This document shows, piece after piece, positions 58,723 to 63,842 of a stretch of 64,000 nucleotides of DNA (positions are counted from its first letter, which is position 1; every line of letters begins with the position of its first letter). The stretch is from NCBI GenBank assembly GCA_964019335.1, contig OZ025745.1, forward strand, positions 303,314 to 367,313, read 5' to 3'. The DNA comes from Diplonema japonicum. Taxonomy: Eukaryota; Protista; Euglenozoa: Diplonemea. The translations under genes were made by a program, and so were the position numbers. The notes beneath the pieces were generated by a model, which saw nothing but the letters and a program-made list of their open reading frames with translations, had not been told where the DNA came from and did not search any database.

Positions 58723-59652
58723 CTATTTCTTGCTTTTCTTCTTCGAACTGAGCGGCAAAGCCTCATCCGAGGACAAACTGTTGTCGGAGTCACCTGGGAC
58801 GTCGTCGAAGGTCAGTTTCAGAGAGTCTCGCTTCTTCCGTTTTGGGGTTTTTTCTTTGGGTTGTTTTTTTGTTTTTTTTTTGGGTTTTTCAGGTCCGCCA
58901 AGGGCCTTTTCCAGCCTCTCCTTCAGCACAGCCTTGGTACCGGTAATTATCATGTCTCTCGCAGACAGCTCTGCTCGTAGCTCTTTAACATTCAGTGTAT
59001 CGGTGTCCACGCTAACAGGCACCTTGTGGATCGTGAATGCCTGCTGAGCACTGTCCGTCCCTGTCCCCTCCAATGGCGCGGCCCTCAGTCTTTCTTTCAA
59101 TACAGATTCAGCCTCTTCCTTCTCTTGTTTTTCGTAGTCGAAGTCCGCTGTCCCCCACACATTGGAGGGGTTGCCTGGTTTGAACACTGCCGTTGCTGTT
59201 GGTTCCGTAACTAGTTTCACGCTTTTCTTCCCTTTCGTGGGGTGTACAGGTTTCACAGGTTCTGATACAGATGAGGTGTCGGGGCTGTCTTGCTTCTTGA
59301 CTATTTTAGCCCTTTTGGGGGTGGGTTTGACATGTTTTGCGGGTGCTTCTGATGAACTGTCATTGGAATCTGAGCTGTCTGTGTTCTGTACAACCTTTGC
59401 CCTCTTGGAGTTGGGTTTCTTCTTTGCAGGTTTCGCGGGTGCTTCTGATGAACTGTCGTTGGAATCGGAGCTGTCTTGTGTAACCCTGGCCCTCTTGGTG
59501 CCGGACTTTTTTGCAGGTTTCGCAGGGGTTTCCGACTGGTTGGATGAGGCACCGGAACTGTCATCGGAGCTGTCCTTGTATTGTGCCTTCCCTGCCTTGC
59601 TGCGACCCCCTCGTGCAGCTGCCTTCGTTGGCGCCTTCTTCTCGCGTTTGGA
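58723..59652 (-). CDS. SAP-domain, Lys/Ser-rich nuclear-type protein, 3' exon only (5' part not found in window)
   Basis: SAP motif LNVKELRAELSARDMIITGTKAVLKERL. The exon starts after a poly-A...CAG acceptor (59653-59655) and has no nearby in-frame ATG. Confidence 0.75.
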   Translation of the reverse strand, partial: SKREKKAPTKAAARGGRSKAGKAQYKDSSDDSSGASSNQSETPAKPAKKSGTKRARVTQDSSDSNDSSSEAPAKPAKKKPNSKRAKVVQNTDSSDSNDSSSEAPAKHVKPTPKRAKIVKKQDSPDTSSVSEPVKPVHPTKGKKSVKLVTEPTATAVFKPGNPSNVWGTADFDYEKQEKEEAESVLKERLRAAPLEGTGTDSAQQAFTIHKVPVSVDTDTLNVKELRAELSARDMIITGTKAVLKERLEKALGGPEKPKKKTKKQPKEKTPKRKKRDSLKLTFDDVPGDSDNSLSSDEALPLSSKKKSKK

Positions 59653-59654
59653 CT

Positions 59655-59706
<52 letters not shown>

Positions 59707-59804
59707 TTTTAACAATATTATTGTCGAGACTAAAAACTAGTTGATGGCAGCGTAATGAGCTATTTTATTAGGTAAAATTCCGCTCGTGCGCACAAACAAA
59801 GAAA

Positions 59805-60864
59805 ATGTCAAGGGACGACTTCGAACTAGGGAAGGTTAAGTGGACGGACGTCGAGACATCGACATATCCTCTTCGGCTACCCCCGCGAAACACGGTCACG
59901 ACTGTGTGTTCTTCCCCTCGTGCGATAGGGCCCATGATCTGGGTAACCATTGCGCGAGGTGCGGACGCGTGGGGGACCCCGAGTGCCTACGGGCAAAATG
60001 AAAACGAAGGCCCTACGGGTGCGCTTCGAGTTGCCCACGAGTTCAGAGGAGCTTTGGGTTTGCCCTCCGTGTTGCTGGGAAGTTGACAATGGGGCTGACT
60101 TAGTTGTCACCGACGAGGGGGCAGATCATGCGGAAGGGGAGGACGGGGAGCGCGAGGAAATGACGGACACTGGCGGGGTCGCTGAGGTAGACTTGCTGAC
60201 GGAGGCGGAAAGCCACGCTGACCCAACGGTACGCCGTTTGGTGCAGCTGATGATGGCGAGGAACGACGCGATGGCCCTGAAGCATGAAGCGCTGGAGGCC
60301 GAATTAACGGCTCTGCGCAAGGAGAAGAGGACCAGGGTCCCGTTTGACCTGGATCTTCGGCGGGTCGTGGAGTGGGTCCCCTACTTGGATTGCCCTTCGG
60401 GGGTGGACGCAATCCTGTCCGCGATCGCGTTGCGTTACGGTCCTTTCGTGGACAAGCCGGAGAGTGACGCCAATGCGGGTTGCCACGAATCTATGAGGAT
60501 CTGGCACTACCTACGGGTAGCTCGCGACAAGGAAGGCAAATGGTCTAAGGATCTACTTCCGACGCTGCACAGTTACATGCTACGGCTTGAAGCTCTGCGC
60601 GTGCTGACGGAGTGTGGCCAGAATTTCCGGCTCGGGATTCAGAAGGCCCGCGCTTACGAGGGGTATCTCTTCGGGTCACACTGGGAGGACTTCTCCGATA
60701 AAAAGCTACGGCTTACATTTAAGCACATGAACTCTACGGAGGCCGTGCTTGAGGTCTTGAAGAAGGATCGGGAGAGGGAGAGGGAAGCAGACAGGTTGAG
60801 AAACAGACAAGGTGGAACCCCTAAGAGGACTAGGTTGGGAAGTTTCTCGACTCCAAAAAAGTGA
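59805..60864 (+). CDS. Element ORF1 (Gag-like) with N-terminal PHD-like Cys cluster and coiled coil; two 1-nt frameshifts in homopolymers
   Basis: ATG 59805; adding one C (~59880) and one A (~59995) gives ...HDCVFFPSC...CARCGRVGDPECL...WVCPPCC...LEAELTALRKE. The second copy at 63693 reads in frame through the first site. Confidence 0.6.
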
Positions 60865-61059
60865 GCCGCGGCCTCACTCTCCCCGAAACCCAAACCCCTC
60901 CTTCCCCAATCAAAAAATCCCTCTCTTCCTTCCTCTCTTACGACTATAACGCTTTCCGATTCCCCATGGAGCGATCTTCTCCGTGGCGGAACCATCCGCA
61001 AGAAGGACTCTGTCGACGGGAGCGAAGTTCCAGAGCTACGGCAGAACACGCTAAAGACG

Positions 61060-61862
61060 ATGTCCACCGCTTACAAGGGTCAGGCTTTTCTCTCAGTGAT
61101 GCGAAGATCGGAGGCCTTCCGCGAGCAACTCCAGAGGATTCAGCCACACCTGTCAAAGGAGATGTGCTTTGCGATGTGGGTGCAGCGTCTACGCGACGAG
61201 AAGCGCCTCAGCCCGAGTTCGGCTCTGCAGTATATGACGTACTTCAGCCAGGCGGAGAGGTCCCCTTTTCAACTTCTTCGGCGATCCCTGAGTCGAAAAC
61301 TCTCGGACCACTCCGCGCACGAGGACAAGATGGCCCGGGTGCCGACCATGTCCGCAGTGAAGGAGGTGATCCCCAAGAGAGGCATCTTGGCGGGGGCCTT
61401 GAGCCTCCAGCTGGCTTCGGCGTGCCGGTGGGTCGACTTGAAGAATCTTCTAGTCAAGCACGTGGAGCAGGGACGCCACGACACCCCGAAAGGTTCGGTG
61501 ATGCTTACCTTTGTGGGGGCAAAACCGACCTGAGCAGTCGCGGCCAGAGCCTGGTTTTAAGTTCACAGAACAAACAGATCGACAAGTTCCTGTTGTGGAT
61601 GGACTCGCAACCGAGGTTGCCCGAACACCGGCTGTTTCAGGAGCTTTCCTACGGGGACTACAACTCCTTCGTGAAGCAGAGCCTCGGGGTGACAACAAGG
61701 TTCATCCGTCACGCGACCTTGAACGAAGTCGCCCTGACCCAAGGGGAGGAGGCCGCGAGGACACTTGGTCGGCATCGTCGCGTCGAGTCGACCAGACACT
61801 ACACCTCTCGAGGTACGTGGGGGGACGTGAAGGGGTCGGTCGACGTCTCGAGGAACCTCTAG
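61060..61862 (+). CDS. Tyrosine recombinase, split by a 1-nt deletion in the G5 run at 61515-61519
   Basis: ASACRWVDL (Arg), then after the shift GKTD (Lys), TRFIRH (HxxR-like), LGRH and STRHY (catalytic Tyr). Confidence 0.82.
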
Positions 61863-63427
61863 ATACTTTTTGGGAGGTTTTGTCCTGGTACGACTATGAC
61901 TGGGACTGGTGGAATCTGGAAGGAGACGTGCCTCGGATTCCTCGAGCGAGCTATGAGGGTCATGTGGCAGGCGCACCCCTAGAGCCCCTCGATGCTGCCT
62001 TGTTGCAGGAGGACTTCCCCTGTCTGGGGGAGAACTTCGAATGGATAAAGCCGTCTTTTCTTCGGCGGCACATCGGCAGCCGCGCTAAGGAGGTTGGTCC
62101 TCGCAATACGAGATTGGCTGTTCTTGTTGGTCAGATCACTGGAGGCAACATCGCTGTGAAAGCCCCGAGGAGCAGAGCCGGTTCATTTTTTCATTGCGCT
62201 TTTTGCGTTAAAAAGCGAAAGCCTGGACAGCTGCGTTTCATCCTCGCCTGCACAGGTCTGAACAAGAGTCTGAGCCACTTACCCTTGCCGCCGTGTAACT
62301 TCCCCTCCTATCGTGAGATAGTCGAGACCATGTTCCGAGGAGCCTACTTCATCGAGCACGATTTCAAATCATGGTTTTTCCAGTTTGAGCTGCACAAGGA
62401 ATCGCGGCCTTTCTTCTCGTTCAGAGCGGATGGGAATATCTTGCAGATGCAGCGGCTTGCAATGGGATACCGAGCCGCGCCGCAGCTGGGTCAAGCCGTC
62501 GCCAGATGTGTGGCTAACGAGTCTGTGAGAAATTCATCCGTTCTGGCTGTCGTCTGGCTGGACAACATCGTACTCATCGACAAAGACCTGGGTACGTTGA
62601 AGGAGGCTTCGCTCAGGTTCGAAGCTCTGTGCCGGAGGTACCGCATCGTGATCGGCGAGACGTCGGCTCCGTCACAGGTGGGTAGAGTCTTGGGTCTGGA
62701 GTGACCTCCAATGCAAGAGATGGAGGATGTGCAGCAAGTGGATCGAAGCCCTGAAACCGATACTGGAGGACTTCGTGTTTGACAGACCCCTACAGCTTCG
62801 GAGGTGGTGGAGGCTCTGCGGTCTTGTACTTTGGCGAGCTCATGCGCTGGCCCTCCCTCTTTTCAGGTTCAAGTCCATCCTTAGGTGGATGTCGGGTGTG
62901 TGCAAAGGCAAGGACCTCGATGCTGCTAGTCGAGCGGGTTTTTTGGGACTACACTCATAATGATACCAGCGTCGGTGCAACGTGCGTTGCGGGCCGCTTT
63001 CGAAGAGTTGAGACAGAACGAATGGAAGCGGTGGGCCGAGCGACCTACAGTAAGGCTCGAGGCCTTCACGGATGCCAGCTTGACGGGGTGGTGCTGCATG
63101 CTAATGCTCGACGGGAAGAAACACGTCAGGTGGGGACGTATACCGCAAGCCTTGGCGGGAGCGGCCATTGCTCGATTGGAGATGTATGCCCTGCTGGAAC
63201 TGCTAGAATTTGCTTTTCGGGTGTTGGGTCTCCGGAACGTGGTGCTTCACGTGGGTATCGACAGCACTGTCGTTCTTGGTGCTTGGCGGAAGGCCTACTC
63301 CGGTGACGAGGTCATGCTCGAGATGCTGTGCCGGGGCCGAGAGATCGCGGAGGAGGCGCAAAGCGAGGTGTCTGGGTTCTACGTGAGGTCCCGGGAGAAC
63401 CCGGCGGATGCGTACACTAGGTTGTGA
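61511..63427 (+). CDS. Reverse transcriptase-RNase H (pol), with frameshifts near 62702 and 62945
   Basis: RT: FCVKK...LRFILAC..LN, HDFKSWFFQF, RLAMGY..AP, VWLDNI, VLGL. RNase H: FTDAS, IARLE, GIDST, NPADAYTR. Confidence 0.88.
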
Positions 63428-63550
63428 CATGTTTTTTCCTTGGCACGAGCGCGCTGGCGGCCTACCCCACTCCTGGCCAAGGTTCGCTAAGACGAATCTG
63501 TGACCTAAGGGACACGCGGCGGGGAGGGGGAGGGCGTGTTCATAAGTGGA

Positions 63551-63571
63551 CCGCTCGTGCGCACAAACAAA
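63551..63571 (+). repeat. 21-bp direct repeat CCGCTCGTGCGCACAAACAAA (also at 59780-59800 and 63668-63688)
   Basis: Three exact copies bracketing the element's coding region. Confidence 0.95.
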
Positions 63572-63842
63572 TGGAGCGCCAAACTAGTTTTTTGTTTTAA
63601 CAATATTATTGTCGAGACTAAAAACTAGTTGATGGCAGCGTAATGATCTATTTTATTAGGTAAAATTCCGCTCGTGCGCACAAACAAAGAAAATGTCAAG
63701 GGACGACTTCGAACTAGGGAAGGTTAAGTGGACGGACGTCGAGACATCGACCCTTCGGCTACCCCCGAAACACGGTCACGACTGTGTGTTCTTCCCCTCG
63801 TGCGATTGGGCCCATGATCTGGGTAACCATTCATTTATTTTT

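What the first reader, a model, noticed from the sequence alone, without database searches (positions are those of the whole stretch)
60831..62704. YR retrotransposon with the recombinase gene nested inside the pol frame and a three-way junction A-AAA-AAG-TGA at the end of ORF1
Seen: ORF1 ends CCA AAA AAG TGA (60853-60864), a correctly phased X-XXY-YYZ heptamer directly before the stop. The -1 frame opens only after TAG 60831-60833. Restoring one G in the G5 run at 61515-61519 fixes two frames at once. (a) The -1 frame becomes continuous from 60861 into the RT (...AYLCGGQNRPEQ...WLDN). (b) The 0 frame after the TGA becomes a complete recombinase ending at 61862. About 1 kb is therefore dual-coding, with YR inside the pol frame and in the same frame as ORF1 behind a single TGA. 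Inferred expression routes: Gag-Pol by -1 frameshift; YR by UGA readthrough or by SL trans-splicing. The latter is suggested by an AG-free, pyrimidine-rich stretch (~60866-60969) ending at AG 60970-60971, whose first downstream ATG is the YR start at 61060. A small GTGAG...CTCAC hairpin overlaps the stop. Caveat: if A6 is really A7 (most other shifts here look like 1-nt homopolymer losses), ORF1 and pol form one polyprotein, still with a nested YR.
Basis: partly seen in the sequence, partly recalled or inferred. Interest (0 to 1): 0.82.

Follow-up and report, generated by a model that had tools for sequence, protein, structure and literature searches.

The report
Diplonemid VIPER-type retrotransposon, overprinted recombinase
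A jumping gene of a marine flagellate writes its recombinase gene entirely inside a second open reading frame that leads to its copying enzyme, the layout already tabulated for the VIPER elements of trypanosomes, and it likely reaches that enzyme by a ribosome slip at the end of its first gene, a step I found described in no paper searched.

Summary
Coordinates are all correct. The element (59700-63831) is a tyrosine-recombinase (YR) retrotransposon, with order ORF1-YR-RT/RNase H, in a diplonemid. The -1 frame over the YR has no stop where about 12 are expected, and diplonemid relatives keep this frame continuous. A6 is real in 6 of 6 runs laid. G5 is real too: it is the only form listed in 3 of 4 runs, and G6 shows only in a decayed contig. 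The layout is not new: a published table gives it for T. cruzi VIPER. What seems undescribed is the expression signal. Read by eye, 5 of 5 published VIPER elements carry an in-phase slippery heptamer 7-14 codons before a UGA. That favours Gag-Pol by -1 frameshift, but A_AAA_AAG here is the weakest eukaryotic type and lacks a downstream structure. The route to YR is open. The scan earlier noted like overlaps in Naegleria DIRS1 and a euglenid element, not this element.

The parts
59700..59951 (+). left terminal direct repeat (A1), running out of a poly-T tract
   Evidence: 95.6% to the right copy over 252 columns
59998..60864 (+). ORF1, gag-like by position, 288 aa from ATG 59998; no CCHC box seen
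   Evidence: no Pfam or PHROG match
60831..60833 (+). last stop in the -1 frame; leaves a 10-codon overlap with ORF1
60855..60861 (+). in-phase heptamer A_AAA_AAG, candidate -1 frameshift site
   Evidence: A6 in gap-free contigs of 6 of 6 runs
60860..60878 (+). small hairpin (-7.1 kcal/mol) that holds the UGA stop (60862-64) and overlaps the heptamer
   Evidence: 7 of 200 shuffles fold as well; no structure from 60867 on
60866..60971 (+). AG-free pyrimidine-rich tract ending at AG, candidate trans-splice acceptor
   Evidence: longest AG-free gap and most pyrimidine-rich stretch of the element; 36 of 500 shuffles give a gap as long
60966..60968 (+). first ATG behind the ORF1 stop, in the pol (-1) frame
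60834..61517 (+). pol N-terminal extension, first half (-1 frame over the linker and the YR N half)
61060..61533 (+). YR N half from ATG 61060, with the first catalytic Arg; ends at TGA 61531-33 because of the G5 shift
   Evidence: 31% identity over 138 aa to the N terminus of D. papillatum P0003, E 1e-15 in a 153-protein set, starts aligned
61515..61519 (+). G5 run: one-base shift that breaks YR and pol together; shared by most copies
61518..61862 (+). YR C half (Lys, x-x-x-Arg with Arg in place of the usual His, His, Tyr by inspection)
   Evidence: ESM Atlas 0.96 to Phage_integrase clusters, recognition 3041; no Pfam, PHROG or PDB sequence hit
61517..61864 (+). pol N-terminal extension, second half (-1 frame over the YR C half)
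61865..63427 (+). RT (WLDN) and RNase H; this copy has two shifts of its own (near 62702 and 62944) where the runs read otherwise
   Evidence: PF00078 E 4.5e-5; 37-54% to diplonemid-clade relatives; indel table
63551..63571 (+). 21-nt copy of a stretch inside the terminal repeats
   Evidence: family D7
63588..63831 (+). right terminal direct repeat (A2); a 49-nt inverted repeat spans its left edge (63582-63630)

Best explanation
This is a YR retrotransposon with the VIPER layout in a diplonemid, whose recombinase gene lies wholly inside a stop-free -1 frame that leads to the reverse transcriptase; in intact copies that frame is likely entered by a -1 ribosomal frameshift at A_AAA_AAG, and the copies seen here carry a one-base shift (G5) that breaks both enzymes. 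Shown: the layout, the lack of stops, A6 and G5 in public contigs, and a continuous pol frame in relatives. Inferred: most ribosomes stop at UGA and make Gag; a few slip and make Gag-Pol, in which the roughly 330 overprinted residues act mainly as a tether. Inferred with less support: YR is made from ATG 61060 on a shorter mRNA trans-spliced at AG 60970-71 (my odds for YR: trans-splicing 45%, UGA readthrough 35%, reinitiation 20%). Inferred: G5 copies spread with enzymes supplied in trans by rarer intact copies, or by duplication.
For: Stop avoidance in the window and in two distant intact relatives (L002 0 vs 9.1, L004 0 vs 9.4; 0 of 5000 draws each), both with ORF1, one stop, YR in frame, and pol opening before the stop. 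A hidden-frame alignment finds the window's YR in the +1 frame of the pol N-extension of 5 of 10 proteins tested (scores 71-163 against shuffle maxima 41-65, 15 shuffles each); in P0011, P0004 and P0172 it runs across the G5 break. T. cruzi VIPER: ORF1 1-1341, YR 1342-2359, RT/RH from 1218 (PMC6681497 Additional file 3). Read by eye from Additional file 10 (parts 1-3 of 6): 5 of 5 distinct elements have an in-phase heptamer (A_AAA_AAC twice, G_GGA_AAC twice, A_AAA_AAA once) 7-14 codons before a UGA; 3 of 5 have a clear stem 6-7 nt behind it. A_AAA_AAC and G_GGA_AAC are among the shiftiest sites for mammalian ribosomes (PMC5009743, passage). DIRS-1 RT acts in trans (PMC7192593, passages). YR start matches P0003.
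Against: X_XXA_AAG heptamers were the least efficient in eukaryotic assays (PMC4066793, passage). No structure folds 5-9 nt behind the site (z 0.59). L002 and L004 have no heptamer in the overlap. An in-frame ATG at 60966 could start Pol without any slip. No intact G6 copy was seen: the one G6 contig has two more indels within 35 nt. The extension's peptide is barely conserved: its first half beats shuffles in 0 of 10 relatives. The VIPER junctions were read by eye, not computed. Of 16 listed substitutions in the overlap and linker one makes a stop in the pol frame (minor contig in X7).
Confidence: 0.6

Rival explanations
1. Pol is started on its own at ATG 60966 (reinitiation after the ORF1 stop, or a spliced mRNA); the heptamer is a chance Pro-Lys-Lys end.
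For: 60966 is the first ATG behind the stop and in the pol frame. P0004 and P0172 begin with Met a similar distance before RT, though gene callers pick the first ATG. Weak heptamer, no stimulator. 2 of 5 VIPERs have AUGA over the stop (by eye); L002 has a pol-frame ATG 22 nt before its stop.
Against: Splicing at AG 60970-71 would remove this ATG. Heptamer in 5 of 5 VIPERs, AUGA in 2 of 5. Chance of the heptamer in the overlap about 0.04, and 0.017 given Pro-Lys-Lys and element codon use.
Confidence: 0.22
2. Full three-way junction: termination gives Gag, -1 slip gives Gag-Pol, UGA readthrough gives Gag-YR, all from one mRNA.
For: No second stop between UGA and the YR in the window, L002, L004 or the 5 VIPERs (by eye). 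In L002 the first in-frame Met is 30 codons into the YR frame. All 6 euglenozoan elements use UGA. The stop sits in a hairpin here and in L004.
Against: In the window an open 65-codon linker has probability 0.13 given the pol peptide. The linker is low-complexity and matches no relative. T. cruzi VIPER and L004 have ATG right behind the stop. The context is UGA-G, not the leaky UGA-C (recalled).
Confidence: 0.25
3. G5 is itself a programmed -1 shift site that serves both YR and Pol, so the majority form is functional.
For: G5 is the majority form in an otherwise nearly intact family; one -1 shift there would complete both proteins.
Against: No slippery heptamer in either frame there by inspection; no structure behind it (z 1.09); relatives are continuous at this place; a G6 form exists in X8.
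Confidence: 0.05
4. The open -1 frame is a by-product of YR codon use and is not translated; RT starts further down.
For: Low peptide conservation of the extension.
Against: 0 stops against about 12 expected, with normal controls; the first Met in the frame after G5 lies inside the RT domain; relatives keep the frame.
Confidence: 0.05

Closest known systems
VIPER (Trypanosoma cruzi, Crithidia fasciculata, Bodo saltans; PMC6681497: main text parts 1-2 of 9 and searched passages, Additional files 3 and 5 whole, file 10 parts 1-3 of 6)
   Same: Order gag-like, YR, RT/RH; short YR ORF behind the ORF1 stop in the same frame; RT/RH ORF in -1 opening before the stop and covering the YR (exact in the T. 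cruzi row); direct repeats at both ends; heptamer before a UGA (by eye).
   Different: Host is a diplonemid; heptamer abuts the stop and is A_AAA_AAG with no downstream stem; pyrimidine-rich 65-codon linker; no B1/B2 repeat pair found; no CCHC box; not all table rows fit the frame rule (some look off by one, some do not fit).
TATE (Leishmania braziliensis and others; PMC6681497 Additional file 5)
   Same: Same gene order; YR and RT/RH ORFs overlap.
   Different: TATE YR ORFs are mostly 1.9-3.6 kb and RT/RH starts late in them or after them; YR is not nested in the pol frame.
DIRS1-like elements with long ORF overlap (PMC3266345, passages)
   Same: A long stop-free second frame over an enzyme gene.
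   Different: Mirror image: there the YR ORF overlaps pol and the catalytic YR domain lies in the non-overlapping 3' end; ITR/ICR ends; methyltransferase. That paper says Viper does not usually have ORF overlaps, which later papers contradict.
Retroviral gag-pol -1 frameshifting (PMC5009743, PMC4066793, passages)
   Same: Heptamer in a short gag/pol overlap.
   Different: Retroviral sites have a downstream stimulator; the passages and term searches show no DIRS or VIPER case (0 hits in the first 300,000 of 449,034 characters).

Membership tests
VIPER | ORF order gag-like, YR, RT/RH | tested here: met
VIPER | tyrosine recombinase as integrase | tested here: met
   Atlas 0.96 to Phage_integrase clusters; catalytic residues by inspection, His of H-x-x-R replaced; Pfam, PHROGs, PDB blank for the half protein
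VIPER | short YR ORF overlapped by the RT/RH ORF | tested here: met
VIPER | split direct repeats A1 ... B1-A2-B2 | tested here: inconclusive
   A1/A2 found; only a 21-nt extra repeat; no B2 in the 169 nt left of the window behind A2
VIPER | RT groups with named VIPER/TATE RTs | not testable with these tools
   No named VIPER protein was returned. In a FastTree of 142 of 157 RT cores the window falls in a clade (support 0.99) with D. papillatum and Flectonema proteins
VIPER | no methyltransferase domain | tested here: met
   no Pfam match and no coding room after RNase H
VIPER | no target-site duplication | not testable with these tools
TATE | long YR ORF with only partial overlap to RT/RH | tested here: not met
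   YR about 267 aa and fully nested
DIRS1-like | inverted terminal repeats with internal complementary region; YR behind RT | tested here: not met
   direct repeats; YR before RT
Ngaro | order gag, RT/RH, YR (PMC8547959, passage) | tested here: not met
   YR lies before RT
canonical eukaryotic -1 frameshift signal | in-phase X_XXY_YYZ heptamer in the overlap | tested here: met
   but Z = G, the weak class
canonical eukaryotic -1 frameshift signal | stem or pseudoknot 5-9 nt downstream | tested here: not met
   (no pseudoknot-aware folding was run)

The most novel reading that the evidence does not exclude
VIPER-class retrotransposons across Euglenozoa decode one gag stop three ways (stop, -1 slip into a Pol frame overprinted on the whole catalytic recombinase, and UGA readthrough into the recombinase), an unrecognised double recoding in YR retrotransposons and in kinetoplastid and diplonemid nuclear translation.
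Probability: 0.25. Interest if true: 0.75.

Novelty: new member of a known kind. Interest (0 to 1): 0.45.

Why it matters
How YR retrotransposons express their overlapped enzyme genes is not addressed in the papers I could search ('translat' 0 and 'readthrough' 0 hits in PMC6681497). A heptamer at the gag end of this element and of published VIPERs gives a short cassette that a reporter can test. It would show programmed frameshifting on euglenozoan cytoplasmic ribosomes, and explain why about 1 kb over a whole recombinase is kept free of stops. The element also extends the VIPER layout to diplonemids. The genomic copy itself is defective and the layout is in print, which caps the interest.

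Tried and rejected
No own genome held, so no copy-by-copy count. No RNA holder listed; SL splicing and expression could not be tested. A7: not seen. G5 as an assembly error: rejected. Searches (protein 7; protein 1), 62 and 63/71 were run by mistake on the pol frame over the YR C half (start 61520) and say nothing about YR; repeated in the right frame. AlphaFold without alignment gave unusable models (pLDDT 43 and 57), so no fold search. YR C half against L002/L004 YR by pairwise alignment: not significant (58 and 257 of 500 shuffles). Homologue search with the YR N half: 0 of 507 candidates. Related loci: none in viral contigs (0 of 125) or prokaryote genomes (0 of 99); 4 of 595 in metagenomes, scan cut at 54 of 64 parts. 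Substitutions between copies (16) are too few for a selection test. Paper searches for VIPER or DIRS with ribosomal frameshift, slippery or frameshifting: 0 papers; with readthrough: 2 listed, one checked and irrelevant, one not opened. [quoted passage not shown] Of PMC6681497's 13 readable supplements I opened 3; five .fas files could not be read.

Full report
Observation. ORF1 (59998-60864) ends CCA AAA AAG TGA. The -1 frame opens after TAG 60831-33 and stays open to 61862. The frame behind the TGA is open to 61533, and a third frame runs 61502-62704 into the RT. The element is bounded by direct repeats at 59700-59951 and 63588-63831 (95.6%) and lies on the + strand among long ORFs that are on the - strand.

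What the proteins are. RT: PF00078, E 4.5e-5. The best named relatives are from Diplonema papillatum and Flectonema neradi, and in a FastTree of 142 of 157 RT cores (15 too short were left out; midpoint root) the window sits in a clade with them at support 0.99. The host is thus likely a diplonemid; all Euglenozoa trans-splice a spliced leader (PMC10161547, passages). YR: the N half matches the N terminus of D. papillatum P0003 (31%). The C half scores 0.96 to phage-integrase clusters in the ESM Atlas, while Pfam, PHROGs and PDB sequence searches are blank. Five earlier calls on this half used the wrong frame and are discarded (27 in part, 60, 61 in part, 62, 63/71).

Is the overlap selected? 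With the YR held fixed and synonymous codons redrawn 5000 times, the -1 frame should have 5.9 and 5.8 stops over the two halves and has none (7 of 5000 each). Controls behave normally except RNase H (2 vs 6.1). Two distant relatives from a metagenome (RT identity 23-24%), L002 and L004, are intact with the same layout: ORF1, one TAG, YR in frame, pol in -1 opening before the stop; 0 stops against 9.1 and 9.4. For relatives known only as proteins, I asked whether the N-extension of pol can hide the window's YR in its +1 frame. It can in 5 of 10 (P0011, P0004, P0172, P0006, P0002; scores 71-163 against shuffle maxima 41-65, 15 shuffles each). It cannot in P0001, whose extension is a peptide repeat, nor in four distant proteins. 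In three the match runs across the G5 break. The extension's own sequence is poorly kept: its first half beats 300 shuffles in 0 of 10 proteins, its second half clearly in 5 of 10, four of these from one cluster. So openness matters more than sequence.

A6 and G5. Twelve runs were listed; I laid 6, from 3 studies, all kept as contigs and of unrecorded kind; one may be the window's source. A6 stands in gap-free contigs in 6 of 6. G5 was read in 4 runs with a complete indel table: X1, X2 and X7 show only G5; X8 shows G5 (depth 9.4) and an extra G (7.4) in a contig with two more indels and four substitutions. The left anchors are 25-30 letters, just under the tool's bridging rule, and contigs drop rare variants, so intact G6 copies are not excluded. 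By contrast the window's shifts near 62702 and 62944 are read otherwise in the runs (4 of 4, and 3 of 3 that cover the place), so RT/RNase H is likely whole in most copies. Most copies therefore carry one lesion that breaks YR and pol together. Spread in trans is plausible: DIRS-1 RT acts in trans (PMC7192593, passages), and internally deleted derivatives exist here.

What is known. YR and RT/RH ORFs are 'frequently extensively overlapped' (PMC6681497), and VIPER and TATE have two overlapped ORFs (PMC12278014, passages). Additional file 3 of PMC6681497 gives for T. cruzi ORF1 1-1341, YR 1342-2359 and RT/RH from 1218: the same frames as here. Other rows also nest the YR; some look off by one and some do not fit. 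TATE differs. The main text never discusses translation. Reading Additional file 10 by eye (parts 1-3 of 6), the five distinct elements (one Bodo, three Crithidia, one T. cruzi family seen in two copies) each have an in-phase heptamer 7-14 codons before a UGA, with YR in frame behind it: A_AAA_AAC twice, G_GGA_AAC twice, A_AAA_AAA once. Three have a clear stem 6-7 nt downstream (10 base pairs in T. cruzi). This was not computed. Searches for a paper on this found none, but the original VIPER papers were not seen.

Mechanism. Pol: -1 frameshift is likeliest (about 65%), because the heptamer sits in a 10-codon overlap (chance about 0.04) and the family shows stronger versions. Against it, A_AAA_AAG is the weakest class in eukaryotes (PMC4066793), nothing folds behind it, L002 and L004 lack a heptamer, and ATG 60966 offers a plain start. 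YR: undecided. The AG-free tract is the longest in the element (36 of 500 shuffles reach it) and the ATG behind it matches the start of P0003, which favours trans-splicing here. The open linker (probability 0.13) and the lack of second stops in relatives keep readthrough alive. An unreviewed note on this genome proposes UGA readthrough in a LINE; I did not test it.

Verdict. Real, selected dual coding in an element with the VIPER layout, new for diplonemids as far as my searches go (PMC10161547 names only TATE-like ORFs). Membership in VIPER rests on layout; the tree test and the B repeats are open. The copy and most of its family are defective. The useful new point is the likely frameshift signal shared with published VIPERs. 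Novelty: new member of a known kind; interest 0.45.

Noticed in passing
window 60589 to 61745: Contigs in X6 and X8 join these places, with 8 other letters between in X6, removing the ORF1 end and most of YR. Loose ends also join 61154 and 61756 to about 63555-63570: internally deleted derivatives.
   Followed up: partly
L002:2575-3300, L004:2160-2900: Both distant relatives have an extra stretch in pol between the YR end and RT with an NPRFS motif; by eye like an adenine methyltransferase (label recalled; Pfam blank). In DIRS1 that domain follows RNase H.
   Followed up: no
L002:1557-1564, L004:1151-1159: Both have a run of 8-9 G in the short ORF1/pol overlap and TAG-G as the ORF1 stop; a possible non-canonical slip site.
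   Followed up: no
L002:5149-5907: Second copy of the ORF1 start (94.8% over 771 columns): tandem elements.
   Followed up: no
window 63582-63630: 49-nt inverted repeat at the left edge of A2; the left copy starts inside it at the poly-T tract. Candidate recombination site.
   Followed up: no
window 58726-59736 (-): SAP-domain ORF (PF02037, E 4e-7) with about 90-nt repeats runs up to the poly-T tract and into the left end of the element.
   Followed up: no
protein P0003: The D. papillatum gene model joins the YR N half to RT and skips the catalytic YR half; likely an annotation artefact of this overlap.
   Followed up: partly
protein P0001: Closest RT relative (53%) has an N-extension of about 25-residue repeats that does not hide a YR.
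   Followed up: partly
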